Made by a program: the position numbers and the translations under genes
The notes under the pieces: generated by a model
What the model was told of the DNA's origin: nothing
Seen by the model: only the letters and a program-made list of their open reading frames with translations
The model's database searches: none
Assembly: GCA_028716665.1 (NCBI GenBank)
Contig: JAQUPP010000001.1
Location: 413,046 to 477,045 of the forward strand
Length of the DNA: 64,000 nt
Reading direction: 5' to 3'
DNA from: Patescibacteria group bacterium
GTDB lineage: Bacteria; Patescibacteriota; Patescibacteriia; UBA2591; JAQUPP01
In this document: positions 9,025-60,254 of the stretch, piece after piece
Layout of the letters: every line of letters starts with the position of its first letter
Numbering within the stretch: the first letter of the stretch is position 1

Positions 9025-9180
9025 AATAAAAAGTATTGACAAATTTTTATTTTTTTGTTATTATCAAGCGAGTGAGAGAAATGAAAATAATAGATTTTCA
9101 TTTCCGATCCGCCAGTTGGCGGAGCAGATATCAAATGGTTTAATAACCTTTATTATAAAATTAAATAAAAAGGAGGTGAA

Positions 9181-19807: not shown

Positions 19808-20869
19808 ATGAGAATATTTTTAAGCGGCGGCGGCACAGGCGGTTCGGTCAGTCCGCTTTTAGCCATCAGCCAAGAAATAAAGAAACATAATCCGGAAGCA
19901 AAATTTTTATTTATCGGAACTCGCCAAGGTTTGCCGGAGAGGGAATTGGCTCAATCATACAATATTCCTTATCAACCGATTTTTTCCGGTAAATTGAGCC
20001 GTTATTTTTGTTGGCGCAATTTTGTTTCTCCATTTTTAATTATTGCAGGTTTTTTACAATCTGTTTTTTTAATTTTAAAATTTAAGCCAAAAGCTATTGT
20101 TTCGGCCGGGGGATTTGTCGCCGTGCCATTGGTTTGGGCCGGTTGGTTTTTCAGAACGCCGATTTTTATCCATCAACAAGATGTTATTCCGGGTTTAGCC
20201 AATAAATTAATGGCTCCTTTTGCTAAAATTATCACCGTCAGTTTGGAAAAATCGTTGAATGATTTTCTGAAAGAAAAAACCGTTTTGACCGGTAATCCGG
20301 TTCGCCCGGACATAAAAAATTATTCTCGAGAAAGAGCGATTAAAAGATTTGATTTGGAAACTAATTTGCCGACATTATTGGTTATCGGCGGCGGCACAGG
20401 CGCGGAAAATATCAATAAATTGATTAATAAAATTATTCCCGAATTGGTTAAATTTTGTCAGATAATTCACATAACAGGGAAAAGAAAAATACAAGTTGCG
20501 CAAACTCTAACTCATTATCATCAATACGAATTTTTAAACGAAGCGATGCCAGATGCTTTAACGATTGCCGATTTGATTATCAGCCGAGCCGGAATGGGAT
20601 TTCTAACCGAATTGTCAATTTTGGGAAAACCGGCGATTATAATTCCAATGCCGAATTCGCACCAAGAAATTAATGCTCAATATTTTGCCGAACAAAAGGC
20701 GATTGTTTTAATGGAAGAAAAAAATATCAATCATAAAATTTTATTTGATAAAATTCATCAATTGATTTTTGCCGCCAGCGAACGTTCTGTTTTGAGTTTG
20801 AATATTTCCAAATTGGCCAAGCCTGATGCCGCTTCCAAAATTGCGGAAATTATTTTGAAGAACATTTGA
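19808..20869 (+). CDS. murG: undecaprenyldiphospho-muramoylpentapeptide beta-N-acetylglucosaminyltransferase MurG
   Basis: N-terminal GGTGG motif and GT28 two-domain fold. Start placed at MRIFLSGGG. Confidence 0.8.
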   Translation: MRIFLSGGGTGGSVSPLLAISQEIKKHNPEAKFLFIGTRQGLPERELAQSYNIPYQPIFSGKLSRYFCWRNFVSPFLIIAGFLQSVFLILKFKPKAIVSAGGFVAVPLVWAGWFFRTPIFIHQQDVIPGLANKLMAPFAKIITVSLEKSLNDFLKEKTVLTGNPVRPDIKNYSRERAIKRFDLETNLPTLLVIGGGTGAENINKLINKIIPELVKFCQIIHITGKRKIQVAQTLTHYHQYEFLNEAMPDALTIADLIISRAGMGFLTELSILGKPAIIIPMPNSHQEINAQYFAEQKAIVLMEEKNINHKILFDKIHQLIFAASERSVLSLNISKLAKPDAASKIAEIILKNI

Positions 20870-20943
20870 CAAAAAGTAATAGTAGAATATAATAAGCAAT
20901 AGAAAAATAAAAAGTTTGCTCATTGGCAGACAAGGGGGATAAA

Positions 20944-21543
20944 ATGGCTCTTTTAAATTTTTTAGGTTTTTTAGGTCTTTGGTATGTTAAAGTAGTGATT
21001 TCGTTGTTTATTATTTTCATGATAATTTGTTTTATTCAGTCTATTGGGAATAAAATTTTGAAAAAACGTTTTCCCGATGACGCAGCTTTCATTAAGTACA
21101 TGAGACAATTCTATGGTTTCAAAGTTCTCCTTGATTATGCTGAATCAAAGGGTATAACCGTGAAAATGGGTGGAAGAAGAAATGGAAGTTGGGATATGGA
21201 AAATAAAATTATTACGATTGATATTGATACTGTTTTTAAGGAAAAATATCGGTTAATGGGGATGGCATTTTTCGCTCATCAAATCGGACACATTGAATCG
21301 TTTGATCCGCAAATTTCCGAATGCAGAAATAAATTAAGGGAAAAAAATTCCGATACGTACTTCATCTGTTACTATGAAGAAAAAATGGCATGGGAGGCAG
21401 GAAGTAAAATTTTGGATTGTTTGGAACTATTAATTCCCGAATATTGGCGATATTATGAACGTCAATGTCTAAATAATTTATGCCCTGATTTTCCTTGTCC
21501 CTTTTTCGAAAAGAATAATACCAAAGAGCCTCAAACAACATGA
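20944..21543 (+). CDS. membrane-anchored DUF955 (ImmA/IrrE-like) domain protein, degenerate HQxxH
   Basis: N-terminal TM, KGITVKMG...ITIDIDT...FAHQIGHIE pattern of ImmA/IrrE metallopeptidases, Cys-rich C-terminus. Confidence 0.45.
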   Translation: MALLNFLGFLGLWYVKVVISLFIIFMIICFIQSIGNKILKKRFPDDAAFIKYMRQFYGFKVLLDYAESKGITVKMGGRRNGSWDMENKIITIDIDTVFKEKYRLMGMAFFAHQIGHIESFDPQISECRNKLREKNSDTYFICYYEEKMAWEAGSKILDCLELLIPEYWRYYERQCLNNLCPDFPCPFFEKNNTKEPQTT

Positions 21544-25022: not shown

Positions 25023-25056
25023 TTGGGATTTATTTGAAAAAGTTTTCCACAGATTA

Positions 25057-25083
25057 TTAGCACTCGGACTTGACGAGTGCTAA
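25057..25083. promoter_or_regulatory. CIRCE operator (HrcA binding site) overlapping a TTGACG-N17-TACAAT promoter
   Basis: Perfect TTAGCACTC-N9-GAGTGCTAA inverted repeat upstream of hrcA-grpE-dnaK. Confidence 0.85.
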
Positions 25084-25240
25084 TTTTTAGTCTACAATAT
25101 TTTTTTGTATGCCAGGTAGTGAAAATTTGGTTAATAATCAATAAAGACAAGATTTTTACAAGCTGGCTTTTTAAAGAAATAAATTTATATTTTAAAAATA
25201 AATATAAAATTTAATAAATATCAAATTTCTACTACCTGGT

Positions 25241-25975
25241 ATGTTAACTCAAAGGCAAAATCAATTGCTTAAAACCATTGTCTCTCAATATATTAAAACC
25301 GCGGAGCCGGTTAGTTCAGAGTCATTGGCTGATAAATATAGATTGTCGGCCCAAGGCCGATCCGCCTCGGGCGGAAAAATAAGTCCGGCTACTATTCGCA
25401 ATGAGATGATGGAATTAACCAAAGAAAATTTTTTAATCCAGCCGCATACTTCGGCCGGCCGTATTCCCACTGAGAAGGCCTATCATTATTATATTAAAAA
25501 TTTTTTACAGCAAGAAGAAGTCAGCCAAATTGAAAAAAGAAAATTAAACAGCGCCAGAAAAGAAAATCAGTCTTTGGAAATTTCAGCCAAGAGAATCGGC
25601 GAGAAAATAGCGGAGTTGACCAACGGATTGGTTATTTTGGCTTTTGATAAAGATAATTTTTATTACACCGGCCTTTCTTCCTTGTTTAGCCAACCAGAAT
25701 TCAATCAAATGGAAGTTGTTTATAATGTTTCGCAAATTATAGATCATTTGGATCAAACCGTTGCCAAAATTTTTGACGAAATAGAAAGCAATCACCGCGT
25801 TTTTTTGGGACGAAGCAACCCGTTTGGTGATTTTTGCGGAACAATTTTAATCAAATATCATACACCAAATCAAAAAAGGGGCGTAGTATTGGGTCTTTTG
25901 GGACCGATGAGAATGGATTACAACAGAAATATCGCTTTAATAGAATATGCCAAAGAGATATTGGACAAAGTTTAG
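25241..25975 (+). CDS. hrcA: heat-inducible transcription repressor HrcA
   Basis: N-terminal wHTH alignable to B. subtilis HrcA (SPATIRNEM) with an 11-aa in-frame insertion; CIRCE lies upstream. Confidence 0.85.
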   Translation: MLTQRQNQLLKTIVSQYIKTAEPVSSESLADKYRLSAQGRSASGGKISPATIRNEMMELTKENFLIQPHTSAGRIPTEKAYHYYIKNFLQQEEVSQIEKRKLNSARKENQSLEISAKRIGEKIAELTNGLVILAFDKDNFYYTGLSSLFSQPEFNQMEVVYNVSQIIDHLDQTVAKIFDEIESNHRVFLGRSNPFGDFCGTILIKYHTPNQKRGVVLGLLGPMRMDYNRNIALIEYAKEILDKV

Positions 25976-26306: not shown

Positions 26307-26837
26307 ATGTCAGATGAAGAAATAAAAAAATTGCAAGAAGAAATCGAATTAATGAAGCAACAAGCGGAAGAATATTTAAACGGCTGGAAAAGAACCAAGG
26401 CCGATTATCTTAATCGCGAAAAAGAAATTGATAAAGAAAAAATTGAATGGATAAAATTCGCCAATTTGGAATTAATTTTGAATTTTTTGCCGATTATGGA
26501 CAGCTTTGATCACTCGGTAAAAAATTTAACGGAAATAGAAAACAGTGGTTTGACAAGCTCACCACGAGATGGTTCGACTTCTTCGACAAGCTCAGGGCAA
26601 GCAAGCTCACCACAAGGCGAGTGGGCAAATGGCGTTTTAAAAATCAAAGACCAATTTGAAAGTTTTTTAAAAGCGCAGGGCGTTGAAAAAATAAAAACTT
26701 TGGGAGAAAAATTCGACCCCATGTTTCACGAAGCAATTGGCAAACAAGGGGAAGAGAATGAAATTGTTGAAGAAATTCAAAGCGGATACGTGATGCACGG
26801 CCGAGTTATCAGACCGGCGAAAGTAATAATTAAGTAA
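26307..26837 (+). CDS. grpE: nucleotide exchange factor GrpE
   Basis: GrpE coiled-coil and beta domain (FLPIMDSFD, FDPMFHEAIG) with a 23-aa in-frame insertion. Confidence 0.85.
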   Translation: MSDEEIKKLQEEIELMKQQAEEYLNGWKRTKADYLNREKEIDKEKIEWIKFANLELILNFLPIMDSFDHSVKNLTEIENSGLTSSPRDGSTSSTSSGQASSPQGEWANGVLKIKDQFESFLKAQGVEKIKTLGEKFDPMFHEAIGKQGEENEIVEEIQSGYVMHGRVIRPAKVIIK

Positions 26838-26868: not shown

Positions 26869-28809
26869 ATGTCAAAAATTATAGGAATTGACTTAGGAAC
26901 ATCTAACTCAGCTGCTTCTTACATGGAAGCGGGCAAATCAAAAATAATTCCCTCAGCCGAAGGGACAACTTTAGTTGGCGGAAAAGCTTTTCCGTCATAC
27001 GTCGCTTTCACAAAAGAAGGCGAACTTTTAGTCGGTGAACCGGCTCGTCGTCAAGCAGTGGCTAATCCGGAAGGCACAATTTTGGCCGCAAAAAGAAAAA
27101 TGGGCACTGACTTCAAATATAATATTTTCGGCAAAGAATACACGCCTCAGCAAATTTCCGCTTTTATTTTGCAAAAAATAAAAAAAGACGCGGAAATGTA
27201 TTTGGGCGATAAAGTGGAAAAAGCGGTTGTGACCGTGCCGGCTTATTTTAATGACGCGCAAAGACAAGCAACCAAAGATGCCGGAGCGATTGCCGGACTT
27301 GAAATCGTCCGTTTGGTTAATGAACCGACCGCGGCCAGTTTGGCTTACGGTTTGGATAAAGTTCAGGAAAAAGATCAGCAAGTTTTGGTTTTTGATCTCG
27401 GCGGCGGAACATTGGATGTGACGATTATGAATTTCGGCCAAGGCGTTTTTGAAGTTCGTTCCACTTCCGGCGACACCAAACTCGGCGGCACGGATATGGA
27501 TGAATCTTTGATAAATTATATAATTGATGAATTTAAAAAAGAGCAAGGCGTTGATTTGAAAGCTGACAAAATGGTAACCCAGAGAGTCAAGGAAGCGGCT
27601 GAAAAAGCGAAAATTGAATTGTCTTCAGCTCTGGAAACGGAAATTAATTTGCCGTTTATTACCGCCACCAACGAAGGACCGAAACATTTATTGATGAAAA
27701 TCACCCGGGCGAAATTGGAAGAATTGGTTAAACCGATTGTTGATCGCTGTCGTGTTTCAATTGAACAGGCGATTTCAGACGCCAAACTTACCCCCGCTAA
27801 TATTGAAAAAGTTATTTTAGTCGGCGGTCCGACCAGAATGCCGATTGTCCAGAAATTTATTGAAAATATTTTCGGCCCGAAAATCGCTCGAGGCGTTGAC
27901 CCGATGGAATGCGTGGCCATGGGCGCGGCAATTCAAGGCGCGATTTTAGCCGGCGAAACAGAAGTCAAAGACGTTCTATTATTGGACGTCACGCCGCTTA
28001 CTTTAGGCATTGAAACTTTAGGCGGAGTAATGACGCCGATTATTGACCGCAATGCGACTATTCCAACTTCAAAATCTCAGGTTTTTTCTACTGCAGCTGA
28101 CAATCAAACTTCAGTGGAAATTCATGTTTTGCAGGGAGAAAGACCGATGGCCGGCGACAACCGGACTTTAGGTAGATTTATTTTGGACGGCATTCCGCCG
28201 TCTCCAAGAGGCATTCCTCAAGTTGAAGTCGGTTTTGATTTGGACGCAAACGGTATTTTAACCGTCACGGCAAAAGATAAGGCCACTTCAAAATCTCAGC
28301 ATATTACCATTAAAGATACTTCCGCGCTTTCCAAAGAAGAAATTGAAAAAATGAAAAAAGCAGCCGAGCAATTTGCCGCTGAAGACAGAAATAAAAAAGA
28401 AATAATCGAATTGAGAAATCAATCCGACACTTTAATTTATACTTGCGAAAAAAGTTTAAAAGACGGCGGCGATAAAATTCCGGCTGATGTCAAAAAGCAA
28501 GTTGAAGACAAGGTTGCTGAATTGAAAAAAGTCAAAGACGCGAATGATATTGAAGTGATTAAAAAAGCGATTCAAGATTTGGGCGACACGGTTCAAAAAA
28601 TCGGCGCGGCGATGTATGGTTCGACCTCTTCGACAGGCTCAGAGCAAGCAGGCTCACCACAAGATGGTTCGGCCTCTTCGACAGGCTCAGAGCAAGCAGG
28701 CTCACCACAAGCCCCGGGTGCTCAACCAGAAGCCGGTCCGACAGAAGAAAAAAAGAAGGATGAAGGACCGATTGAAGGGGAATATACGGAAGAAAAACCT
28801 AAATCCTAA
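26869..28809 (+). CDS. dnaK: molecular chaperone DnaK (Hsp70)
   Basis: [28 protein letters not shown] signatures; 646 aa with two tandem 16-aa repeats in the C-terminal tail. Confidence 0.95.
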
Positions 28810-28880: not shown

Positions 28881-29501
28881 ATGAAGGGAAATAATCAAAT
28901 AGATTTTAATGTAATTGAAAAAGAAATGGATGAATTATGGGAGATGTATAAAAGATGTAAATCTCATCATTCTTATAGGGAGGATAATGTTATAGGATTA
29001 AAATGTATAGAACCAGGAGAATATTATTCTAATAGAAATAAATTTTCTATTTGTTATGATAATCCAATAACACAAGAAGACAAAAAAGAAAATAATAAAA
29101 TTTCAAATTGGATAAATGAAAATTTTATTGTTCGTTTATGTTCTATATTAGATTGCTATCAAATTTGTTCTAATAGACAGAAGATAGATCACAAAATTAA
29201 TAATTGGCAGGATATTAATTTTATAAGACAATTAAGGAATATATTTTGTCATACTACGGAAAGTAATTTTGACAAAAAATATCAAAAAATTATTAAAAAA
29301 ATAGGAGAATATTTAAAATTATCAAAGAATGATTTTGGTTTATCAATTGATAAAGTTATTGAACCATTATTTAATGGTTGTAAAGAATATATTAAAATTT
29401 TAAAAAACCAGAAATTATCGTTTCCATCTCCATTTTTTAATTTTATTCTTAAAATAAAATATCTATGGCAAAAGTTTTTGGACAAAAAAGTAAATATTTA
29501 A
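28881..29501 (+). CDS. hypothetical protein, possibly HEPN/Abi-like (Rx4H motif RNIFCH)
   Basis: Only a motif-level hint (LRNIFCHT); context is next to NERD and a toxin-antitoxin pair. Confidence 0.3.
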   Translation: MKGNNQIDFNVIEKEMDELWEMYKRCKSHHSYREDNVIGLKCIEPGEYYSNRNKFSICYDNPITQEDKKENNKISNWINENFIVRLCSILDCYQICSNRQKIDHKINNWQDINFIRQLRNIFCHTTESNFDKKYQKIIKKIGEYLKLSKNDFGLSIDKVIEPLFNGCKEYIKILKNQKLSFPSPFFNFILKIKYLWQKFLDKKVNI

Positions 29502-30223
29502 TTAAAAAAGATTTTATTCATGGGTGGGGTTATGGCGTTATAATACCTTCAATAGTTATTATTATTGTAGGTATTTTGTTTATACGTTTTGGGTTAATAA
29601 TTAATCCGGTCTTAATTAAAACGGGAGGAATTATTGGTTTGATTCTAATGACTGTGCCGCTTATAATTTTAGTAAATCTAGGCAATAAGTTGGATGATTT
29701 TTCCCTTAAGCATAATCATATTTCTAATCAATTTTATCGCGGACGATGGGGCGAAAAAGATGTTTTGGATGAGCTTAAAAAATTGCCCAATGAATACACT
29801 ATTTTTCAAGACGTTCAATTTCCTGAGAGTAGAGGGAATATAGATTTTGTTTTAATCGGCCCGACCGGTATTTTTGCCCTTGAAGTTAAAAGTCATATAG
29901 GATTTGTTGGTTATCATAACGATGAATTAACTCTTAATAATTGGATTTTTAAAGAAAAAAATATTTTAAAACAAGCTTTTTCCGGCGCTATGCAACTTCA
30001 TGATTATCTTAAATTTAAAATCGGCAAAGATATTTTTGTTAATGCTGCTCTGGTTTTTTCTCACCGTTTAGCCAAAATGCGCTTTGGCTTCAATCCGGTT
30101 GACAATGTTTTTGTCGTGCAAAAAGCATTTTTACTTCAATTGATTACCCAACAACCGCCAAGACTTGATCCGCAAACCATCTTAATTCTTGTAGAAAATC
30201 TCAAACCTTTGGTAAAAATTTAA
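29465..30223 (+). CDS. NERD (nuclease-related domain) protein with N-terminal TM helices
   Basis: GNIDFVLIGPTGIFALEVKSH matches the NERD core. Confidence 0.65.
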   Translation: MAKVFGQKSKYLIKKDFIHGWGYGVIIPSIVIIIVGILFIRFGLIINPVLIKTGGIIGLILMTVPLIILVNLGNKLDDFSLKHNHISNQFYRGRWGEKDVLDELKKLPNEYTIFQDVQFPESRGNIDFVLIGPTGIFALEVKSHIGFVGYHNDELTLNNWIFKEKNILKQAFSGAMQLHDYLKFKIGKDIFVNAALVFSHRLAKMRFGFNPVDNVFVVQKAFLLQLITQQPPRLDPQTILILVENLKPLVKI

Positions 30224-30361: not shown

Positions 30362-30739
30362 ATGATATATACTAATAATAGTGAATATAAAGTTAAATTC
30401 TATAAAGATAGTCGAACCGGAGATAGTCCAGTGTTAGAATATATTGATAATTTATCAGAAAAAGAAAGGACAAAGGTTTTTAAATATATTGAATTCTTGC
30501 GAGAACATCAAGGGGTTTTAGATGAACCTTATTCTAAACACATTAAAAGTAAAATTAGAGAATTGCGGGTTGATTTCGCTCGTCAAAGGCATAGAATTTT
30601 TTACTTTACATTTATAAAAAAGACCATAATTTTGCTTCATGCTTTTTTAAAGACAACAGCCAAAACTCCTCAATCAGAAATAAAAATGGCAGAAGAAAAT
30701 TATAATGATGTTTTAAATAATGAAGAAATATATGAATAA
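30362..30739 (+). CDS. type II toxin, HigB-like (phage Gp49 / DUF891 family)
   Basis: KVKFYKD...VLEYIDNL...ELRVDF...RIFYF pattern of Gp49-like RelE/ParE toxins; overlaps the downstream HTH gene. Confidence 0.6.
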   Translation: MIYTNNSEYKVKFYKDSRTGDSPVLEYIDNLSEKERTKVFKYIEFLREHQGVLDEPYSKHIKSKIRELRVDFARQRHRIFYFTFIKKTIILLHAFLKTTAKTPQSEIKMAEENYNDVLNNEEIYE

Positions 30740-31034
30740 AATTAAAAAATCACAAAAGGCGGTAGATTTTCAAGAATATCTCGCCGAACAATTAAAAAAT
30801 CGCAAATTTAAAAAATACTATGATGAATATGGTAAACAATTAGAAATTGCTTATCAAATTTTGCAATTGCGCAAACAAAGAGGAATATCCCAGGCTGAGT
30901 TAGCGAAAAAAATAGGGACAAAGCAAAGCAATATTGCCAGAATGGAAACCGGCCAACAGAATTTAACCATCAGCATGCTTCAAGAAGTTGCCAAAGCATT
31001 AAATCGAGATTTTAAGATTGTATTTATTAGATAA
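30720..31034 (+). CDS. HTH XRE-family antitoxin (HigA-like)
   Basis: LRKQRGISQAELAKKIGTKQSNIARMETG helix-turn-helix. Confidence 0.7.
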   Translation: MKKYMNKIKKSQKAVDFQEYLAEQLKNRKFKKYYDEYGKQLEIAYQILQLRKQRGISQAELAKKIGTKQSNIARMETGQQNLTISMLQEVAKALNRDFKIVFIR

Positions 31035-31174
31035 AATAAAATTTAATTGTCCGACAAAAAATCGAGTCTAGTGCTCGGTTTTTATTATCTCTTGACAAAA
31101 AGTGATTTTTGCGCTATGATGTTAATAATTCTGAGCGATTAGGTTTGGAATTAAAAAAAAGAAAGGAGGGGGAA

Positions 31175-31465
31175 ATGGAGGGTCAAAATATCTATACAAT
31201 CAATTTTTGCAATACTGATGACGATAGTATTCGAAGTCAAGTCATACTTTGCCATCAGAAAAAAATTTCGCAGAAAGTATTTGCAACGAAAATCGGTTTA
31301 ATCATAGAGAAGTTTAAAGCCAGTCCCGATTTTAATGATCAGGAATTTCGTCCTCACAAAGGAACTCGGATTCTTGACCAAAAATGGAGCAATATAATTA
31401 CAGACGGTCTGTGTAAACAAGGATTTTCTGTAATTTCACCGATTGGAAGTTATAAAACGTATTGA
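31175..31465 (+). CDS. hypothetical protein
   Basis: ATG after AAAGGAGGGGGAA, own TTGACA promoter; start placed at internal MEGQN of the track ORF. Confidence 0.35.
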   Translation: MEGQNIYTINFCNTDDDSIRSQVILCHQKKISQKVFATKIGLIIEKFKASPDFNDQEFRPHKGTRILDQKWSNIITDGLCKQGFSVISPIGSYKTY

Positions 31466-31587
31466 ATATAAATTAAGGGGTGTTTAAAAACCGCCCCTTT
31501 TTTAATTGACAAATCATAATTTTTTTACTCTTGACATTTTCTGAAAAAATGCTATAATATAAATAATTAAAAAAAAGGGGGTGAAAA

Positions 31588-31962
31588 ATGGGAAAAGGAG
31601 TTAAGAGGCCATATTCGCTTTTAGAAACAATAATAGATGTCACTGAATTTTTCGGAGCTAAACCCGAAAAATGGCTACAAATACCAAATAGTTCTTGGGA
31701 AGGAGGAGCACGAGTAAAATTTGAAGCCGATGGAAATAAAATAGAAGTAAGATTGTTTCCGGATAAAGTTGGTTTTTTTAGAGTCAAAAAGGCATTAGAT
31801 CACAATGATTCTGATAAATCAGACATAGATATTCTTTTCAGGGATATCTGGTACGTTGCGTATATTAACGTAGCGGGAATTGGAGAGAGTGTCCGATTTG
31901 TCAATACAAAAGATCAGACCCTAACAATCAATAAAAAGGGCAATTGTATTTTAGAAATTTAA
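31588..31962 (+). CDS. hypothetical protein
   Basis: TTGACA-N17-TATAAT promoter, SD AAAGGGGGTGAAAA, and terminator hairpin after the stop. Confidence 0.4.
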   Translation: MGKGVKRPYSLLETIIDVTEFFGAKPEKWLQIPNSSWEGGARVKFEADGNKIEVRLFPDKVGFFRVKKALDHNDSDKSDIDILFRDIWYVAYINVAGIGESVRFVNTKDQTLTINKKGNCILEI

Positions 31963-32018
31963 GTTTATAGGGGTTAAATAAAAAATATTTAACCCCTATT
32001 TTTTTTCTCTTGACCCCC

Positions 32019-32144
32019 TCACCAAAACGTTGATATTTATTAATAATAAGTCCGTCTTTATTAAAATTTATTTTATTATGTAAAAATTAAAAAATACAGA
32101 TATTAATTATTTTCATCAGCGTTATAGGTGAGGGGGTTGACAAA
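32019..32144. repeat. MITE-like element E5 (TTGACCCCCTCACC...GGTGAGGGGGTTGACA)
   Basis: Same terminal structure as E1; right arm forms the -35 of the promoter for 32256-33134. Confidence 0.55.
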
Positions 32145-32255
32145 ACACGAAAAATATGCTTAAATAATAGCAATATTTTAGAAATAGTTCTTTAAATATA
32201 TGCGGTAAAATTGCCGCATAAATAAAGTTGTCCCTAAAAGGGAAGGGGGTTTCAT

Positions 32256-33134
32256 ATGGAAACGAGGAAAATTGCTCTTGCTTGTTTTATCGGCGGAGCG
32301 CTTTGCTGCGCAGTTGCGTTATTTGCCGCACCAATGTATTGGTGGTTGGGTCTTCTGGCGGGATTTGCCGGCGGTTATCTCAGTTATGAGTTTCGCGGAG
32401 TTTGCAAAGCAGCACCAGTTGCTTTGAGGATTGCCACAAAAGAAAGCCGTAAAATTTATCAAAGTGAAATTGTCAGAACAAAAGAGTGGTTTTCTAAGAA
32501 CCACCCATTTGCTTATCTCAATATAATTTTGGCTGTGATATTCGGTCTTTATCTTATTCCTTATGATTGGATTATCGCAGATACATATCCGAACATATCA
32601 CACTATATGCGAGCTTTAATTACGTATTTTTCGATACAGGCGTTGGCTGTTTTTGGCGCGCCATTCCTTTTTTCTTTTTGGGGCGCAAGATTTGTTGATA
32701 AATGTTATTGGATATCAAAAGGGGAAGATGCATATTTAAAGGAAGCGAATAATCCGGATATATGGAGATACAAACTTAAACAAAAACCGCTGACTTATTT
32801 AAACGTTCTGCGTTGGATGGTATTAGGTGCTGGATTTTTTATTTGGACACCATGCAAATTTTGTCTTAAAATAGTTTGGACAATACTTTGTTTCTTGGGC
32901 CGTTTTGCCTGGCATCTCTTTCGGTTGATTCATTCAAACAAGAGGGTGCTTTGCGCAATTGACGGAACACTTGGCGGACTTATCAGTTATTTTTATTTTA
33001 TTTCCATGCCAATGCCATTTGGAAGCAAAATAATGTTCATTATTTTTGGAGGACTTTTGGGAGGAGTATTCGGCATTATAAGTTACGAGATAATCTCAAA
33101 AAGAATTCTTCACCTGAATGCGGCGACAACTTAG
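32256..33134 (+). CDS. hypothetical multi-TM membrane protein
   Basis: Promoter supplied by MITE-like element E5, SD GGGAAGGGGG, 292 aa with about 8 TM segments. Confidence 0.45.
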   Translation: METRKIALACFIGGALCCAVALFAAPMYWWLGLLAGFAGGYLSYEFRGVCKAAPVALRIATKESRKIYQSEIVRTKEWFSKNHPFAYLNIILAVIFGLYLIPYDWIIADTYPNISHYMRALITYFSIQALAVFGAPFLFSFWGARFVDKCYWISKGEDAYLKEANNPDIWRYKLKQKPLTYLNVLRWMVLGAGFFIWTPCKFCLKIVWTILCFLGRFAWHLFRLIHSNKRVLCAIDGTLGGLISYFYFISMPMPFGSKIMFIIFGGLLGGVFGIISYEIISKRILHLNAATT

Positions 33135-33303
33135 TAAAATAAATATACTGGCGGTTAGATAAATATCTTCCCGCCAGTTTTTTTACTCTTGGCCCACTTT
33201 CATAATTTACCATTAGGGGTTGACATTTTGGCAAAAATATGCTATTTTAAAGACAATTAGAGTTCGTTTAAAAAGCTTGTTTATTAACAAACAAGGAGGT
33301 AAG

Positions 33304-34104
33304 ATGCCGAAAAAGAATAAAGAAATTATTCGTTTACGGGGTCATCATTTAGATCTTTTAATGACTTTATTTAAGCGACCTAAAATCGGAGCAGGCATGA
33401 TCAAAAACGCCATTATATCTGAAAAAGATTATGGTTTTAAACAGCAAAGAATAGTGTTGGCCGAAAGAATAATTCAAGTTCTAAAGGAAATTCTTCGAGG
33501 ACAAACAAGGGTTAAGCTCATCGACGGAATAGATGATATCTGTCAGAAATGCAAGAGAAAAAGAACAAAGGAATGCAGTTGTTGTTATGCGGGAAGCGCG
33601 GAGGATAGACGAATAGTTGGACGTTATGGATTAGAAATGGATAAAATTTATCCAGCTGCTGAAATTATAAATGCTTTAGCAATGGCTCGAAATGGTATTC
33701 GCTTGAGAGGAACTCATTTAAGACTGTTGGATTTTTTTATTCGCCATCCCAAAACTGCAGTTGAAACAATTAAAACTCTTAAAGAGTTCGGCAAGAAACA
33801 TATTGAAGAGACTCTTAAGATTTTAGAGATGGCTAAAAAGAAGGGTGTTTACATTCAGATTATTTGGGAAATAGATGATATTTGTCGAAATTGTAAAGAA
33901 AGGGTAAATTTTAACAGGAATGCGGATTGTATTGATGGTTGGAGAGTTTGCTGGTATCAAAATTTTTTATTAGAATATTCTTCTTACCAGCCACCGGATG
34001 ATTCAAATGTGACTCAATTGTTGGGTTTAAAGAGAAATAAATTTTATCCGGCTGATAAAATTGTCGAAAAATTAAAGGAATATAAAAATAAATTGAGGGG
34101 TTAA
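33304..34104 (+). CDS. hypothetical Cys-rich protein with an internal two-fold repeat
   Basis: Repeated LRG(H/T)HL.LL...DDIC..CK modules; conserved cassette leader upstream. Confidence 0.45.
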   Translation: MPKKNKEIIRLRGHHLDLLMTLFKRPKIGAGMIKNAIISEKDYGFKQQRIVLAERIIQVLKEILRGQTRVKLIDGIDDICQKCKRKRTKECSCCYAGSAEDRRIVGRYGLEMDKIYPAAEIINALAMARNGIRLRGTHLRLLDFFIRHPKTAVETIKTLKEFGKKHIEETLKILEMAKKKGVYIQIIWEIDDICRNCKERVNFNRNADCIDGWRVCWYQNFLLEYSSYQPPDDSNVTQLLGLKRNKFYPADKIVEKLKEYKNKLRG

Positions 34105-34143
34105 ATAACCCCTCAATTTTTAATTTTTGTTATTGGCAAAAAC

Positions 34144-35361
34144 CTACCCCATTTTTATTTCTAATTTTTTTCTTTTATATCTTACCGAAAAATAAATTAA
34201 CGGTAGGGCTAAAATTAAAAATCCGGCAAGCAGAAAACCTTGCCTTGCCGTTATAAAACCAAGCATAAAACCGGCAACAGGCGCGCCGATTATTGACGCA
34301 AGAGATTCAAACATTGATTTGATTGATAAAATCGCAGCTCGATTTTCGCTTTTAACAAATTCGTTCGTCAGGGCTTCTTCAAGTGGTAAAAATATTTCGT
34401 CTATTGAACTGAATAAAGTGAATAATATAACGGTAAATAATATTAAACTTGTTTTTGCGGCCGCGAATAATAAAATTGCATAGCCGAGCGCCAAGAAAAA
34501 TAAAATAAATAATTTACTTTTTTTCTTAAGAAAAAATTCCGCGACAAGAGGCAAAATTATTCCAAGTCCCGCGATTATTGAAAAAAGATAGCCGATCATT
34601 GGAAGGCTTAAACCTATTTTTTCAAGATGAGGCGTCCAAATTAAAGAGGTGATTTCATCAACAAAAAAGAAAACAAATATTCCTGAAAATAACAAGATGA
34701 TGATTTTGTGGCTTAGGGCGGTTTTTATGGCTGTTTTTGAATCTTGAAAAATATTACAGAATTTTTTTTGCGCAATTGGTTTATCTTGCTCATGTTTTCT
34801 TATTTCTTTTCCAAAAAAGAGAATTAAGGTTGAAACAAAAATTCCGGCGGCAAAAACGAACCAAAGATTTCTCATATTTGAGGTCGCGACGATATAGCCG
34901 CCAATTAACGGAGCTGCGACCATCCCGATATTTCTGAACATTCTGGTTTTTAAAAAATATTTATCAACCAATGACTTGTCCGTGTTTTCCATGAGATCCA
35001 CTGCCCAAGCGCGATCAGCGCCACTAACAAGTGTTTCAAAGAGCGCGTCAAAAGCAAAAATTATCGCCACAATATAAAATTTATCCCAAACAGGGATAAG
35101 CGCTAAAGAAATAGCGGTTAACAAATATCCCAGGATTACGCTATTTTTTCGTCCATACTTGTCGGCTATAACTCCGGTTGGTATTTCAAAAATAAGCGTA
35201 ACAACGCTTCGGATACTGCTTATTAACGCGATTTGGAAAAAATTAAATCCGATATGCAAAAAATACAAGACATAAAACGGCATTATGACTTTAGATAAAT
35301 TGAAAATCAGAGAATGGGCGTAAAACGGAAAAAGTAATTTTATTTCATTTTTCTTAAACAT
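34144..35361 (-). CDS. MFS transporter
   Basis: 12-TM protein with an MFS-like GxxADKYGRK loop-2 motif. Confidence 0.65.
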   Translation of the reverse strand: MFKKNEIKLLFPFYAHSLIFNLSKVIMPFYVLYFLHIGFNFFQIALISSIRSVVTLIFEIPTGVIADKYGRKNSVILGYLLTAISLALIPVWDKFYIVAIIFAFDALFETLVSGADRAWAVDLMENTDKSLVDKYFLKTRMFRNIGMVAAPLIGGYIVATSNMRNLWFVFAAGIFVSTLILFFGKEIRKHEQDKPIAQKKFCNIFQDSKTAIKTALSHKIIILLFSGIFVFFFVDEITSLIWTPHLEKIGLSLPMIGYLFSIIAGLGIILPLVAEFFLKKKSKLFILFFLALGYAILLFAAAKTSLILFTVILFTLFSSIDEIFLPLEEALTNEFVKSENRAAILSIKSMFESLASIIGAPVAGFMLGFITARQGFLLAGFLILALPLIYFSVRYKRKKLEIKMG

Positions 35362-35540
35362 ATCGAAGCAAAATTTAAGGCAGTTAGTGAATTAATTATA
35401 ACACAGAAGAAAAATAGAAAGAAGTGCAGAGGATTATTTTAAGTTTTTTTGCAAGGTTGACAAAAATAATTTTTTTTGATACATTTAAAATAATTAAAGT
35501 TCTTTTAAAAAGCCTGCTTATCGGCAGACAGGGAGGAGAA

Positions 35541-35792
35541 ATGAGAAATGCAATAGTGTCTTTTATAGCTCTTTTTATTCTTTGGGGAGTTGGCTGGTTG
35601 GAAAATTATTTCGGCCTTATTGACGTTAATCAGCTGGTGAGTCAAAAACATTTTTATTGCGCTTTTTCCGCCTATTTTGTTTGCGGCGGATTAACCGTAA
35701 TTTTAGCTGTAACGATGTTATTTGCATTTATTTGTTTTCTCGGTTTTTTCTGTGCGCTCTTGGATGGTACTATAGACGATCACTGTTGGTAA
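35541..35792 (+). CDS. small membrane protein
   Basis: Conserved cassette leader and GGGAGG SD in front of the ATG; two TM helices. Confidence 0.4.
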   Translation: MRNAIVSFIALFILWGVGWLENYFGLIDVNQLVSQKHFYCAFSAYFVCGGLTVILAVTMLFAFICFLGFFCALLDGTIDDHCW

Positions 35793-37504: not shown

Positions 37505-37718
37505 AAATTATTAAAGTTGAATCATCAAAAGAGGAGTGTTTTTTTTGAAAGATACTCCTCTTTGTCATCCCTTGACATTTCATCAAAAATTTGATATTAT
37601 AAAGATAATAAAAGTTCGTTAAAAAGTCTGTCCATTGGCAGGCAGGGAGGAAAAATGAAATTACCATTAAAAGATAAATTTCCATTGGAGAGAGAGGATT
37701 TTATAGAAATTATTCCAT

Positions 37719-38114
37719 TTGTTGAATTTTTTGTTTGAGATTCTTGGTTTTAAACCCGGTTATGGCGGAAGAGGTATAGCAATTTTCCCAACAGATCCAA
37801 CTCATTTTCCGGAAAAACAAATTGTGAAGGCCAGTTGGCTACAACAAGCCAGTTATGAATTAGGAGAATTTATGTGTCGAAGCATTCCGGAAACAGTAGA
37901 TAAAAAATTCCTTGTCATGGCTTCTCAATTTAAAATCAGAAAAGTTGTTTCTCAGTTCAATTCTATTTTTCTTATTGCCATTGTAAAAATGAATAAAGGT
38001 TTTACTCATGGCAAAGTTACAATAGAGGGCCGTATTAATGATAAGGATTTGGATCTGGCGCTTGAAGGAGAATTTACTTTTTGTCTAAAAGATAAGGATG
38101 TTGTTTCGTCCTAG
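37719..38114 (+). pseudogene. hypothetical protein, probably frameshifted from a 27-codon leader ORF (about 37655-37738) at a T6 run
   Basis: Consensus cassette leader and SD sit before ATG ~37655 in another frame; a 1-nt indel in TTTTTT would fuse the two ORFs. Confidence 0.35.
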
Positions 38115-38600: not shown

Positions 38601-38708
38601 AAATCAGCCGAGAGAAAAATCTCTCGGCTTTTTATTTTATTCGCCCATGGACAGATTTATAAATTTGAAATAATATGATATGATAAATTATAATTTAATT
38701 TTTATTTT

Positions 38709-55344: not shown

Positions 55345-55478
55345 GAAGGCGTAATAATCGCGCCTTCTTTTTATATTGACAAAATTCAGAAATATGCTAT
55401 TATTAAAACATATAAAGGATATAGTTCATTCAAATAAAAAGAAAAAAGTCTTGCTTATCGGCAGACAGGGAGGAAAAA

Positions 55479-55988
55479 ATGGAAATAAAGAAAGATCGGA
55501 TAATCGCCGGATGCAGTCCTAGCTTTGAGGATACCGACGAAGAAGTTGAAGTAAAGGCAATTTGGGAAATTTTACCGCTTGTTCTTGATATCAATCTTTC
55601 TGAAGATATCAATATTTTGAAAAAAGTAGATATATGGAGTTTGATTATTCATCGCATTTCCGATGATACGAATATTGATTTACCGGTTTTAGAGGTGAAT
55701 AGAGAAGAAGACGAAGAAGTGTTTCTAAGAGATGGAAGATTTTGCGCGTATTCTTTTAAAGATAACAAGCTTTGCACGAATGCGATTTTCAGGAATATTA
55801 AAGATCTTGATATAAAACTTTTTAACGGCAACGAGCACGTATGCGTCTTAATTTTTCCGGAATTGGATCTCGCTCTCGAATATACGAATATTATCATTAT
55901 TCGTTGTCCATGGGGGAAAACTTTCATGGATTTTCCGAATGTTTGCGAATCCATTGAAAAATGGATTAAACAATTTGGTAAGAAATAA
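55479..55988 (+). CDS. hypothetical acidic protein
   Basis: Conserved cassette leader and SD; terminator GGGGCGACAAAAAGTCGCCCC after the stop. Confidence 0.45.
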   Translation: MEIKKDRIIAGCSPSFEDTDEEVEVKAIWEILPLVLDINLSEDINILKKVDIWSLIIHRISDDTNIDLPVLEVNREEDEEVFLRDGRFCAYSFKDNKLCTNAIFRNIKDLDIKLFNGNEHVCVLIFPELDLALEYTNIIIIRCPWGKTFMDFPNVCESIEKWIKQFGKK

Positions 55989-56063
55989 GCCAATAATAGG
56001 GGGCGACAAAAAGTCGCCCCTTTAACTTATCCCCAAAAAGGGGGTTGACCCCCTCACAAGGAA

Positions 56064-56216
56064 AACCATTGTCTTCCTTAGAAATTACAGTTTAATAGGC
56101 ATAAAGTTAAAAATAATCATTTAGATAAGATAAAATCATTGTATATATAAAAAAATGAAAGACAGTATACCCTTTATGGTTTTCCACATGTGAGGGGGTT
56201 GACAAATTTCAAAAAT
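56064..56216. repeat. MITE-like element E3 (TTGACCCCCTCACAAGGAAAACCATTGTCTTCC ... GGGGGTTGACA)
   Basis: Same family; right arm is the -35 for 56328-56777. Confidence 0.6.
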
Positions 56217-56327
56217 ATGCTATTATATATAACACAATAGTTCTTTACATAGCTAAAGCGATCCGGGCTAGATCTCTCAAAAGATCAAAAATGGATCGCA
56301 TAATAGTAGAAAGAAAAAGGGGGAAAA

Positions 56328-56777: not shown

Positions 56778-56828
56778 GAATTATTGAGGGCGCGGAAAAA
56801 TCCGCGCCCATTTTTTTATTATTTATTT

Positions 56829-56976
56829 CTTGACCCCACCACCTTGAAATTATAATGCTCAATTTTATATTTTCTGATTTAAAAATATTTTTTAATCAGA
56901 AAGGTTTAATAAATTATAAATTTAATTTTATACCTCGCATTTTTAAAATATAATTTCTAGGTGGTGGGGTTGACAG
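56829..56976. repeat. MITE-like element E4 (TTGACCCCACCACC...GGTGGTGGGGTTGACA)
   Basis: Same terminal family with a different inner hairpin; right arm is the -35 for 57064-57468. Confidence 0.55.
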
Positions 56977-57063
56977 ATTTTATTTTTTTGTTATAATCAA
57001 AAACAGACTTAAGGGCATGGTACCTTAAAAAAAGTCTGTCTATTGGCAGACAAGGAGGAGAAA

Positions 57064-58567: not shown

Positions 58568-58969
58568 TCCACAATAAAAGACTTGACAAATTCTGAAAAT
58601 ATGCTATTATTTATTACATAATAAAGGGGGTGGTTTTTATGTATGAAAGCACTGGCTGTGAGCGCTAGCCAGATCCTGAAAATGGATTAAATTTGAGCGC
58701 TATCCCTAAAATTGCCAATAAAGGAGGTTAAATGTCCCACACGGGCTTACCGCCTTAAAATAACAAATAGGACTTCAGGCCGAGAGCAATCTCGGCCATT
58801 TTATTTATTATTTTACTCTTGACAATTTTCTAAAATTTGCTATATTTATTCACATAAACCAGGAGGTGATTAAGTAATGGTTCTTTAAAATGGCTTAAGC
58901 GATCCCGGCCAAATCCCGAGGAAGGATTAGAGCGGATTTGCAAATTAAAACAAGAAAAGGAGGTATCAG

Positions 58970-60197: not shown

Positions 60198-60254
60198 AAT
60201 AGATTTTTTTGATTAAATTATAAATAAGATATAGTTCTTTAAAAGGAGGTCTTA

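What the first reader, a model, noticed from the sequence alone, without database searches (positions are those of the whole stretch)
20860..20947. Conserved promoter plus 45-nt leader cassette reused in front of at least six unrelated genes
Upstream of 20944, 33304, 35541, ~37655, 55479 and 57064 there is the same module: TTGACA-N17-TATAAT-like promoter; then AGTTC(T/G)TT(T)AAAAAG; then a hairpin CTGTCT-ATTGGC-AGACAG (variants CTGCTT-ATCGGC-AGACAG and CTTGTTT-ATTAAC-AAACAAG) that ends exactly at the Shine-Dalgarno GGAGG; then 4-6 nt; then ATG. The downstream genes are unrelated: a DUF955 peptidase, a Cys-rich repeat protein, small membrane proteins, an acidic protein and a secreted protein. 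A shorter version without the hairpin (ATAGTTCTTTAAA + GGAGG) precedes 60255 and 32256. A conserved stem-loop abutting the SD suggests a shared translational operator or a target for an RNA-binding protein or sRNA. This would be a regulon of accessory genes, or the 5' boundary of a cassette-type mobile unit.
Basis: seen in the sequence. Interest (0 to 1): 0.7.

Follow-up and report, generated by a model that had tools for sequence, protein, structure and literature searches.

The report
Reused hairpin fused to ribosome-binding sites
Six unrelated genes of an uncultivated Patescibacteria genome carry the same small RNA hairpin directly against their ribosome-binding site, the same hairpin occurs in Omnitrophota, it is in no RNA database, and its function is still only inferred.

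Summary
Six + strand copies of one hairpin-plus-Shine-Dalgarno (SD) module lie between a promoter and a start codon; 0.01 are expected by chance. Three details need correcting.

- The promoter is this genome's generic consensus.
- The AGTTC box is clear in only 4 of the 6 leaders, and it also heads leaders that lack the hairpin.
- The supported stem is not CTGTCT/AGACAG. It is a 7-bp stem G(Y)CTGYY/RRCAG(R)C with a YATY tetraloop ("H1"), abutting A(A/G)GGAGG.

H1 plus SD also precedes unrelated genes in Omnitrophota, other Patescibacteria and 39-52% GC metagenome contigs, sometimes inside operons. Rfam 15 and the literature hold no match.

Orthologues at syntenic positions carry H1, a different hairpin, or none. 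H1 is therefore not a cassette boundary.

U·G wobbles and a few compensatory changes favour an RNA structure. My best reading (about 0.4) is a cis-acting hairpin coupled to the ribosome-binding site that acts on translation initiation or mRNA stability. A protein operator is the main rival. The AGTTC box matches the Nus-factor BoxA consensus, but this is untested.

The parts
20914..20931 (+). H1 hairpin copy 1 (GTTTGCT-CATT-GGCAGAC). SD AAGGGGG at 20932-20938, ATG at 20944. No AGTTC box.
33275..33292 (+). H1 copy 2 (GCTTGTT-TATT-AACAAAC), the copy with compensatory C-G to U-A changes. SD at 33293-33299, ATG at 33304 (double DUF1284 protein).
35512..35529 (+). H1 copy 3 (GCCTGCT-TATC-GGCAGAC). 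SD at 35530-35536, ATG at 35541 (83-aa membrane protein).
37626..37643 (+). H1 copy 4 (GTCTGTC-CATT-GGCAGGC). SD at 37644-37650, ATG at 37655 (frameshifted orthologue of 146-150-aa proteins).
55448..55466 (+). H1 copy 5 (GTCTTGCT-TATC-GGCAGAC, one bulged T). SD at 55467-55473, ATG at 55479 (169-aa acidic protein).
57034..57051 (+). H1 copy 6 (GTCTGTC-TATT-GGCAGAC, -9.3 kcal/mol). SD at 57052-57058, ATG at 57064 (134-aa protein with a signal-peptide-like N-terminus).
33261..33272 (+). AGTTC box (AGTTCGTTTAAA) of the 33304 leader.
35498..35509 (+). AGTTC box (AGTTCTTTTAAA) of the 35541 leader.
37613..37624 (+). AGTTC box (AGTTCGTTAAAA) of the 37655 leader.
55423..55434 (+). AGTTC box (AGTTCATTCAAA) of the 55479 leader.
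60233..60249 (+). Hairpin-less version: AGTTCTTTAAAA fused to GGAGG. It is an exact match to GYTCTTTAANA. ATG at 60255.
32186..32197 (+). AGTTC box (AGTTCTTTAAAT) of the 32256 leader. It is followed by two unrelated hairpins, the second (TCCCT-AAA-AGGGA) abutting AGGGGG.
58879..58890 (+). GGTTCTTTAAAA box (exact GYTCTTTAANA) that heads a different, longer structured leader of 58970.
56239..56250 (+). AGTTCTTTACAT box that heads the homologous structured leader of 56328.
20866..20893 (+). Promoter-like site TTGACA-N16-TATAAT of the 20944 leader, inside the finding's coordinates. Equivalent sites lie at 33220-33248, 35457-35485, 37572-37600, 55376-55403 and 56970-56997. This is the generic genome-wide consensus.

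Best explanation
H1 is a small RNA stem-loop in the 5' untranslated leader, 18 nt long with a 7-bp stem and a YAUY tetraloop. Its last base pair sits directly against the SD sequence A(A/G)GGAGG. I read it as a cis-acting extension of the ribosome-binding site.

Shown: it is transcribed with the mRNA, because it lies between the -10 element and the start codon, or between two cistrons. It folds on its own and leaves the SD single-stranded.

Inferred: it acts through the ribosome or the RNA-decay machinery, not through a gene-specific regulator. Two mechanisms are possible. The hairpin could stack end-to-end on the SD/anti-SD helix and fix the geometry of 30S binding. Or, together with the bound 30S subunit, it could act as a 5' barrier that protects an otherwise A/U-rich leader.

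Shown: the six copies in the window belong to six separate transcription units with generic promoters.

Inferred: they arose by copying a roughly 20-nt unit between the stereotyped leaders of this lineage and have since been kept by selection on the RNA fold.

The AGTTC box is a second, separable leader module.
For: Position and orientation: all 22 distinct copies are in sense orientation, with 0 nt between the stem and A(A/G)GGAGG and a start codon 4-7 nt after the SD. Four copies lie in tight intercistronic gaps, 5-17 nt after an upstream stop codon (L004, L020, L022, L026). The element therefore goes with the ribosome-binding site, not with a promoter.

RNA-level constraint: 92% of cells are paired, against 18-48% when partners are slid. 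Four of 7 pairs show double changes. The covariation score is reached by 5/500 shuffles. In the inner 5 pairs there are 14 U·G and 1 C·A. The hairpins fold at -1.9 to -14.1 kcal/mol with z-scores of -2.6 to -5.7.

Selection: outside H1 and the SD the six leaders are only 65-79% alike, no more than they are to leaders without H1. In the window/L043 orthologue pair the transcribed leader differs at about 4 of 55 positions, while the CDS is 82% identical and the DNA upstream of the -35 is 56% identical.

Arbitrary targets: downstream genes elsewhere include a CxxC zinc-ribbon protein, an isopropylmalate/homocitrate-synthase-like enzyme, CobT-like, YqeY-like and KdpC-like proteins, and unknowns.

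General design: a hairpin just 5' of the SD recurs in this lineage with other sequences. Examples are the L031 orthologue of 20944, the L040 orthologue of 35541, and window leaders 14678 and 32256.
Against: A purely structural element does not explain why positions left free in the collection scans always carried the same bases in different phyla and at 36-52% GC. It also does not explain why the loop stays YAUY.

Thermodynamic modelling shows no consistent gain in SD accessibility from H1: native against hairpin-deleted values are 0.16/0.16, 0.65/0.37, 0.08/0.07, 0.59/0.55, 0.64/0.80 and 0.94/0.89.

The zero spacing and part of the sequence conservation outside the window were imposed by my search patterns. 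Covariation rests on few independent events, and with the six window copies alone it is not significant.

No expression data exist.
Confidence: 0.4

Rival explanations
1. H1 is the operator of a trans-acting RNA-binding protein, or less likely an sRNA. The bound factor would occlude the adjacent SD, so the six genes would form a translational regulon.
For: The sequence, not only the pairing, is conserved, including the YAUY loop and the 3' arm GGCAG(A/G)C. The architecture equals known operators: the T4 gene 43 operator is an 18-base hairpin with a UAAC loop next to the ribosome-binding site (PMC3014915). Six ORFan-like genes share it. An RRM-type 'RNA-binding regulator' gene lies 7.5 kb beyond the window.
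Against: No factor was identified. No complementary RNA occurs in the window or loci. Elsewhere H1 is single-copy per genome in front of different genes in different lineages, and is missing from many orthologues. That is odd for a dedicated regulator. No CxxC-x17-CxxC protein occurs in the window or in the Patescibacteria loci.
Confidence: 0.22
2. H1 is mainly a tiny self-propagating or recombination-spread palindromic insertion of about 18-21 nt. It tolerates, or targets, the A-tract/SD junction and has little function of its own.
For: Presence/absence is polymorphic with clean junctions. Examples are AACTAAAA[21 nt]GGAGG against AACTAAAAGGAGG in Omnitrophota CxxC-gene leaders, and AGTTCTTTAAAAGGAGG against AGTTCTTTTAAAAAG[H1]... 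in the window. The window's lineage has 4 copies in the syntenic block where relatives have 0-1. The same genome copied another 30-nt double hairpin in frame into hrcA. L041 shows leader swapping by recombination at SD regions.
Against: The strict sense orientation and strict position next to an SD in 22 of 22 copies are not expected of REP- or MITE-like DNA. The copies are old: flanks have diverged to background level while pairing is kept. H1 is retained in orthologous leaders across several Omnitrophota species and across 57-60% identical Patescibacteria orthologues. There is no transposase, no terminal inverted repeats beyond the stem, and no clear target duplication.
Confidence: 0.15
3. 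The AGTTC box is a Nus-factor BoxA. Box plus H1 would then be a nut-like (boxA-boxB) site that recruits NusB/NusE to these mRNAs. The effect would be either protection from Rho or, as in E. coli suhB, repression of translation when the box lies next to the SD.
For: GTTCTTTAAAA at 58880 and 60234 matches the published consensus GYTCTTTAANA exactly. One-mismatch versions lie at 32187, 35499 and 37614 (consensus and the suhB precedent, where BoxA lies 6 nt from the SD, from PMC5725501). Eight of 11 RGTTCNTTNA matches lie in + strand leaders, which make up about 1% of the sequence.
Against: Overall counts are near chance in this AT-rich DNA: 36 observed against 27 expected with one mismatch. Orthologous leaders of relatives have T at the C4 position (AGTTTG, AGTTTT). 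C4 is one of the two positions changed in the C4T/T6C double mutant that abolished BoxA function in E. coli. H1 occurs without any box in 2 window copies and in all other lineages. The H1 loop is unlike a boxB loop. No rRNA leader of this organism could be inspected.
Confidence: 0.12
4. The A-tract plus H1 is the mirror image of an intrinsic terminator and serves to stop antisense (minus-strand) transcription at the 5' end of these genes.
For: On the - strand H1 is followed by a T-run. The scan flags it as terminator-like at 35529-35512 and 57051-57034. A near-identical stem (GCCTGCC-TGTG-GGCAGGC, with a T-run on the opposite strand) lies between dnaJ and mokC in E. coli.
Against: Only 2 of 6 copies pass the scan. 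In the higher-GC genomes the A-tract is only AAA. Copies sit inside co-directional operons. No - strand gene ends at any window copy. U·G pairs in the sense strand become A·C mismatches in the antisense RNA.
Confidence: 0.04
5. H1 is a recognition and cleavage site for a Cas6f/Csy4-like hairpin endoribonuclease. Cleavage would trim the leader to a few nucleotides before the SD.
For: The inner 5 bp CUGCC/GGCAG are identical to the stem of the type I-F repeat hairpin CUGCCGUAUAGGCAG. Csy4 binds that hairpin and cuts at its 3' base (PMC4604432). Both loops share UAU.
Against: The loop has 4 nt, not 5. There is no repeat-spacer array: copies are 1.6-17.8 kb apart. No Rfam CRISPR-DR family scores at H1. 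No cas gene was seen in the window. A 5-bp match could be chance.
Confidence: 0.03

Closest known systems
Translational operators made of a hairpin next to the ribosome-binding site (T4 gene 43 operator; also, from my own knowledge, the MS2 coat-protein operator and the thrS operator)
   Same: An 18-nt hairpin with a conserved tetraloop lies immediately 5' of, or overlapping, the SD (PMC3014915). The loop sequence is conserved.
   Different: Those operators are gene-specific and autoregulatory, each with a known protein. H1 precedes unrelated genes in several phyla, and no binder is known.
5' stabiliser stem-loops and SD-type stabilisers of Gram-positive mRNAs (aprE and ermC leaders, cryIIIA STAB-SD; from my own knowledge)
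   Same: A stable hairpin and a strong SD lie in a short leader. The element is modular and transferable between genes.
   Different: Those stabilisers need no particular sequence and no fixed spacing to the SD. H1 is sequence-conserved across phyla and abuts the SD.
Putative mobile promoters / promoter reuse (PMC3488235, PMC3575422)
   Same: Homologous upstream sequence lies in front of non-homologous CDSs within one genome, and some families are shared between taxa.
   Different: The published threshold (at least 80% identity over at least 50 nt) is not reached here. The conserved core is the 25-45-nt leader, not the promoter.
BoxA / nut sites of the Nus-factor complex (PMC5725501, PMC7665894)
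   Same: The AGTTC box fits GYTCTTTAANA and lies within 50 nt of start codons, in some cases followed by a hairpin, as in lambda nut sites.
   Different: The box is not linked to H1 outside this lineage. Relatives vary the C4 position, one of the two positions changed in the C4T/T6C double mutant that abolished BoxA function in E. coli. There are many copies per 64 kb, against 0-7 per gamma-proteobacterial genome. Binding is untested.
Synthetic ribosome-binding-site insulators (a Csy4 hairpin or RiboJ placed between promoter and ribosome-binding site; PMC4604432 for the Csy4 hairpin, the rest from my own knowledge)
   Same: A defined hairpin is placed directly 5' of the SD to standardise expression, and the stem is identical to the Csy4 substrate stem.
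   Different: H1 is a natural element. No nuclease is known, and the loop length differs.

Membership tests
Any Rfam 15 family | Score at or above the family's gathering threshold | tested here: not met
   Only 4 tRNAs in the window and nothing in 9 H1-bearing loci. Permissive E-value scans of 55350-57100, 35440-35560 and L010 5690-5830 gave only far sub-threshold matches to unrelated families, none fitting the hairpin structure.
Putative mobile promoters (PMC3488235) | At least 80% identity over at least 50 nt between upstream regions of one genome | tested here: not met
   Pairs are 65-79% identical over 67-106 nt. Identity of 80% or more is reached only over 34-36 nt.
Putative mobile promoters (PMC3488235) | Downstream CDSs are non-homologous | tested here: met
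   All-against-all BLASTP: no pair of the six proteins has E<0.1.
BoxA (NusB/NusE site) | Match to GYTCTTTAANA within 50 nt of a start codon | tested here: met
   Exact matches at 58880 and 60234. One-mismatch matches at 32187, 35499 and 37614 (criterion from PMC5725501).
BoxA (NusB/NusE site) | Same motif in the organism's rRNA leader, and NusB/NusE binding | not testable with these tools
   No rRNA gene lies in the window or in any fetched locus.
BoxA (NusB/NusE site) | Conservation of the functionally critical positions (C4, T6) | tested here: inconclusive
   GTTC is invariant in the window's 9 boxes, but orthologous leaders in L041 and L043 read AGTTTG/AGTTTT.
Lambda-type nut site | boxB hairpin with a purine-rich GNRA-like pentaloop downstream of boxA | tested here: not met
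   The H1 loop is YAUY, 4 nt. The boxB loop rule is from my own knowledge.
Intrinsic terminator (minus strand) | GC-rich hairpin followed by a T-run at the 3' end of a gene on that strand | tested here: not met
   Hairpin plus T-run is flagged for 2 of 6 copies. No - strand gene ends there, and copies occur inside co-directional operons.
SD-sequestering thermometer / anti-SD leader | An upstream pyrimidine stretch pairs with the SD | tested here: inconclusive
   Duplex energies between the upstream 30 nt and the SD run from +0.8 to -6 kcal/mol, with z-scores from +2.1 to -2.9. Only L029 is strong at -17.4. Predicted SD accessibility is inconsistent.
Type I-F CRISPR repeat / Csy4 substrate | Stem CUGCC/GGCAG | tested here: met
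   The inner five pairs of the H1 consensus are identical to it (substrate sequence in PMC4604432).
Type I-F CRISPR repeat / Csy4 substrate | 28-nt repeats in an array with about 32-nt spacers, and a GUAUA pentaloop | tested here: not met
   Copies are 1.6-17.8 kb apart. The loop has 4 nt.
REP/REPIN or MITE | Extragenic copies in either orientation, often paired; terminal repeats or target duplication | tested here: not met
   All 22 copies are in sense orientation directly 5' of an SD and start codon. No stand-alone hairpin copy was found elsewhere in the window or loci. The searches were biased towards SD-linked copies.
Integron-type gene cassette boundary | The repeat travels with the gene and marks its end | tested here: not met
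   Orthologues of 35541 and 37655 sit at syntenic positions in L040, L041 and L043 with H1, another hairpin, or none.

The most novel reading that the evidence does not exclude
H1 is a new kind of portable RNA element. It would be a roughly 20-nt hairpin that becomes inserted exactly at the A-tract/SD junction of arbitrary genes. It would be recognised by something universal, either the 30S subunit or a widely conserved RNA-binding protein, and would therefore keep the same sequence in Patescibacteria, Omnitrophota and other phyla. In short, it would be a mobile module of the ribosome-binding site that rewires translation instead of transcription.
Probability: 0.2. Interest if true: 0.8.

Novelty: new variant of a known kind. 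Interest (0 to 1): 0.55.

Why it matters
Almost nothing is known about gene-expression signals in Patescibacteria (CPR) and Omnitrophota, which are largely uncultivated. H1 is a compact element that can be tested directly. It is sequence-conserved across phyla, fused to the SD, present or absent between orthologues, and absent from Rfam.

If it enhances or gates translation, it would be a natural, transferable ribosome-binding-site module. It would also help to predict expression in these genomes.

If it is a protein operator, it defines a regulon of lineage-specific small proteins.

The modular leader architecture found here runs: generic promoter, TAAATAATTAA, optional BoxA-like box, optional hairpin, SD. 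It also shows how leaders are shuffled between genes in a streamlined genome.

Tried and rejected
- **Rfam.** Gathering and permissive thresholds gave nothing at H1 or at the box.
- **Literature.** Full-text search for the hairpin sequence found 0 papers. Searches on Patescibacteria leaders and on CxxC-x17-CxxC found nothing relevant.
- **Viral contigs.** 0 matches.
- **Plasmids and phages.** BLAST gave only chance-level hits with E of 0.5 or more. The best is the hairpin between dnaJ and mokC of E. coli, which is unrelated.
No covariation support.
- **H1 as an insulator that frees the SD.** Predicted SD accessibility is unchanged or inconsistent when H1 is deleted or scrambled.
- **AGTTC box or other upstream pyrimidines as an anti-SD with H1 as an apical clamp.** This works for L029 and weakly for 35541 and 37655, but it is not general.
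- **Autoregulation by a CxxC zinc-ribbon protein.** No such protein occurs in the window or in the Patescibacteria loci. Many Omnitrophota orthologues of that gene lack H1.
- **Cassette boundary.** Rejected by synteny.
- **Recent duplication of whole promoter-leader units.** Rejected, because the flanks are no more alike than unrelated leaders.
- **Homologues of the 20944 and 35541 proteins.** Only 2 and 3 clusters among 5.8 billion proteins, so few orthologous leaders could be sampled.
Full report
**What the window is**

The 64-kb window has 35% GC. It carries housekeeping genes: murJ, lepA, topA, murG, murC, hrcA-grpE-dnaK, rpsI and O-antigen/glycosyltransferase genes. Between them lie many small genes without family assignment. 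Its proteins are identical to those of the NCBI MAG GCA_028713475.1, named 'Patescibacteria group bacterium'. Nearly every gene has its own near-consensus promoter, TTGACA-N16-18-(TG)nTAnnnT. A stereotyped short leader follows, often TAAATAATTAA, then an A-tract, then GGAGG.

**The observation**

A degenerate pattern for the hairpin plus SD matches six times, all on the + strand at the reported sites. Shuffles give 0.01 matches. The six leaders form the largest direct-repeat family of window 18000-64000. A covariance model built from 15 copies finds these six and nothing else in the window or in the 10 kb beyond its right end. The downstream proteins are unrelated to each other. Two of them have almost no homologues among 5.8 billion proteins.

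The AGTTC box is clear in four of the six leaders, degenerate in one and absent in one. It also heads at least five leaders that lack the hairpin: 18817, 32186, 56239, 58879 and 60233. Eight of 11 exact RGTTCNTTNA matches lie in + strand leaders.

**The hairpin register**

Related copies from other genomes show that the stem is G-Y-C-U-G-Y-Y / R-R-C-A-G-R-C with a YAUY tetraloop (I call it H1), followed at once by A(A/G)GGAGG. On 22 distinct copies:

| Register | Cells paired | Shuffles reaching % paired | Shuffles reaching covariation score |
|---|---|---|---|
| H1 (7-bp stem, tetraloop) | 92.2% (18-48% when partners are slid) | 12/500 | 5/500 |

Four of the 7 pairs of the H1 register show double changes. 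The inner five pairs show 14 U·G and one C·A. The second pair from the base is often C·A. This asymmetry is what an RNA helix in the sense strand predicts, not a DNA palindrome. With the six window copies alone the test has no power. The hairpins fold alone at -1.9 to -14.1 kcal/mol.

**Distribution**

One scan of 185,579 species genomes left six stem and loop positions free. It gave 17 stretches. Nine of them have a fully paired stem and a start codon at the right distance:
- four Omnitrophota;
- three MAGs labelled Planctomycetia, which share the same genes with the Omnitrophota;
- two Patescibacteria.

One scan of JGI metagenomes left eight stem positions free and gave ten hits. All had the canonical GCCTGCC...GGCAG(G/A)C sequence, in contigs of 36-52% GC. 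Viral contigs gave none.

Downstream genes are:
- a 55-60-aa CxxC-x17-CxxC protein (TIGR04272);
- an isopropylmalate/homocitrate-synthase-like enzyme;
- a 352-aa protein I read as CobT-like from its sequence (not scanned against any family library);
- a YqeY/GatB-like protein;
- a KdpC-like protein;
- a 240-aa protein of unknown function;
- the orthologue of window gene 35541.

In L004, L020, L022 and L026 the hairpin starts 5-17 nt after the stop codon of an upstream gene, so it lies inside operons. Each of those genomes gave one exact-pattern copy, whereas the window has five. These searches fixed AAAG, TG, AT, CA, CA and the adjacent SD. The zero spacing and part of the conservation outside the window are therefore partly ascertained.

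**Known families**

Rfam 15 has no family at H1 or at the box, at either gathering or permissive thresholds. The sequence occurs in no paper of the library. BLAST against plasmids and phages gives only chance-level hits. The best hit is an unrelated GC hairpin between dnaJ and mokC of E. coli.

**H1 varies between orthologues**

| Gene | Window | Relatives |
|---|---|---|
| 83-aa gene (35541) | box + H1 | L043/L025 (70% identity): box + H1. L040 (62%): a different small hairpin, GCCC-ACA-GGGC. L041 (62%): no hairpin; driven by the promoter and leader that in the window serve gene 31175 |
| 146-150-aa gene (37655) | box + H1 | L041, L043: only a box-like AGTTTTTTAAAAA. L040: another leader |
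| 20944 | H1, no box | L031 (50%): an unrelated hairpin, TTCGTC-TTGATT-GACGAA, then five A, then AGGAGG |
| Omnitrophota CxxC gene | not in the window | Six contigs from four species-level variants have AACTAAAAAG[H1]CAAGGAGG. L034-L039 have AACTAAAAGGAGG or similar, without a hairpin |

H1 therefore behaves as an insertion/deletion of about 18-21 nt exactly at the A-tract/SD junction. It is not the boundary of a gene cassette.

The six window leaders are 65-79% alike outside H1 and the SD. That is no more than they are to leaders without H1, so the copies are not recent duplicates. In the window/L043 pair the transcribed leader differs at about 4 of 55 positions. The CDS is 82% identical and the upstream DNA 56%. 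The leader is under purifying selection.

**Mechanism**

Shown:
- H1 is within the transcript.
- It pairs as RNA.
- It leaves the SD free.
- It is tied to the ribosome-binding site, not to a promoter.
- It precedes arbitrary genes.

Inferred: H1 acts in cis through the translation or decay machinery, either by stacking on the SD/anti-SD helix or as a 5' barrier together with the bound 30S subunit. I give this about 0.4.

Weaknesses of this reading:
- In-silico SD accessibility is not improved by H1.
- The conserved loop and stem sequence across phyla hint at sequence-specific recognition. That keeps a protein operator in play at about 0.22. The T4 gene 43 operator, an 18-base hairpin with a UAAC loop next to the ribosome-binding site, is the closest precedent.

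A mostly selfish mini-palindrome (about 0.15) is favoured by the indel pattern. It is also favoured by a second tiny palindromic element that this lineage copied in frame into hrcA. It is disfavoured by the strict orientation and position.

On the minus strand H1 plus the A-tract reads as hairpin plus T-run. I rate an antisense-terminator role at about 0.04.

The inner stem equals that of the Csy4 substrate. There is no array, the loop differs, and I treat the match as a curiosity (about 0.03).

**The AGTTC box**

The box is a separate module. GTTCTTTAAAA matches the Nus-factor BoxA consensus GYTCTTTAANA exactly at 58880 and 60234 and with one mismatch at three more leaders. In E. coli suhB a BoxA 6 nt from the SD represses translation. 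Against this reading:
- overall counts are near chance in AT-rich DNA;
- relatives vary position C4;
- no rRNA leader could be checked.

An alternative is that the U-rich box pairs with the purine-rich SD region. Folding predicts this for 60255, 35541, 37655, 56328 and 58970, but the energies are weak and inconsistent. I give BoxA about 0.12.

**Verdict**

The repeated leader is real and non-random, but several details of the description were wrong. H1 is an undescribed hairpin linked to the SD and found in several phyla. Its function is inferred, not shown.

Noticed in passing
window 25346-25375 and 42981-43010; also L040 17800, L043 18208, L023 3055 (-): A 30-nt GC-rich double hairpin (TCGGCCcaaGGCCGA + TCCGCCtcgGGCGGA) lies in frame inside two unrelated genes, hrcA and a glycosyltransferase, giving the peptide SAQGRSASGG. 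Three relatives have hrcA 91-92% identical but without these 10 codons. The glycosyltransferase copy is DNA-identical in relatives although flanking synonymous sites differ. It looks like a tiny in-frame insertion element, comparable to Rickettsia palindromic elements.
   Followed up: partly
window 26554-26616 (grpE) and 28601-28711 (dnaK 3' end): A 48-63-nt repeat is shared by grpE and the dnaK 3' end, where it is tandem. It encodes Ser/Gly/Gln-rich inserts that are absent from GrpE and DnaK of L043.
   Followed up: partly
window 56239-56320 and 58879-58960: A second shared leader of about 80 nt precedes 56328 (unknown protein) and 58970 (SPFH/Band 7). It starts with the AGTTC/GGTTC box, then GCT.AAGCGATCC.GGC..., and has a predicted long stem. 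It has no Rfam match and may be another structured cis-regulatory RNA.
   Followed up: partly
window 58861-58888: In the 58970 leader the box is part of a three-codon mini-ORF with its own SD: AGGAGG at 58861-58866, then ATG GTT CTT TAA at 58877-58888. The same codons (ATG G[CT]T CTT TTA AA) start the 20944 protein, its orthologue in L031, and the orthologue of its paralogue 21666 in L040.
   Followed up: no
window 38606-38629, 57474-57499, 60030-60053 (similar: 58778-58797): Stereotyped intrinsic terminators with nearly the same stem (GCCGAGAG...CTCTCGGC) follow unrelated genes. Terminators are therefore reused as well as leaders.
   Followed up: no
window 37655-38114: The gene behind H1 copy 4 is split into a 27-aa ORF and an overlapping 131-aa ORF in another frame. 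Orthologues in L040, L041 and L043 are single ORFs of 146-150 aa. This is a frameshift, a pseudogene or an assembly error.
   Followed up: partly
window 31092-35540 compared with L041 9853-10001: In L041 the 83-aa gene is driven by the promoter and leader that in the window drive gene 31175. The 4.4-kb block between them (31175-35440, including 32256, 33304 and the MFS gene) is absent. This points to recombination between SD regions of stereotyped leaders.
   Followed up: partly
window 25056-25084: A perfect CIRCE-type inverted repeat (ATTAGCACTCG-N7-CGAGTGCTAAT) lies upstream of hrcA.
   Followed up: no
L029 6165-6240: In this 42% GC metagenome contig H1 sits at the tip of a longer helix in which CCCCCUCCUC pairs with the SD GGGAGGGG (duplex -17.4 kcal/mol). 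A degenerate second copy of H1 lies upstream. This looks like an SD-sequestering switch built around H1.
   Followed up: partly
L032 7460-7813 (about 7.5 kb beyond the window's right end): A 117-aa RRM-domain protein matches NCBIfam NF058537 'RNA-binding regulator'. It is the only obvious RNA-binding regulator near the H1 genes.
   Followed up: no
window 30362-31034; 29465-30223; 61002-61283: A HigB/Gp49-like gene with an HTH antitoxin pair, a NERD nuclease-domain protein and a MazE/AbrB-like small protein lie among the small unknown genes. The H1 genes sit in accessory-looking stretches.
   Followed up: no
window 62942-63065 and 63788-63907: AT-rich repeats of 58-68 nt, 86-91% identical, flank the ABC-transporter ATPase gene 63070-63789.
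   Followed up: no
window 9108-9123; L040 upstream of 1695 and 12882: Another recurrent GC hairpin (A)TCCGCC-N4-5-GGCGGA(T) appears in several leaders of this lineage, including the L040 orthologue of the 37655 gene. Small hairpins turn over in these leaders.
   Followed up: no
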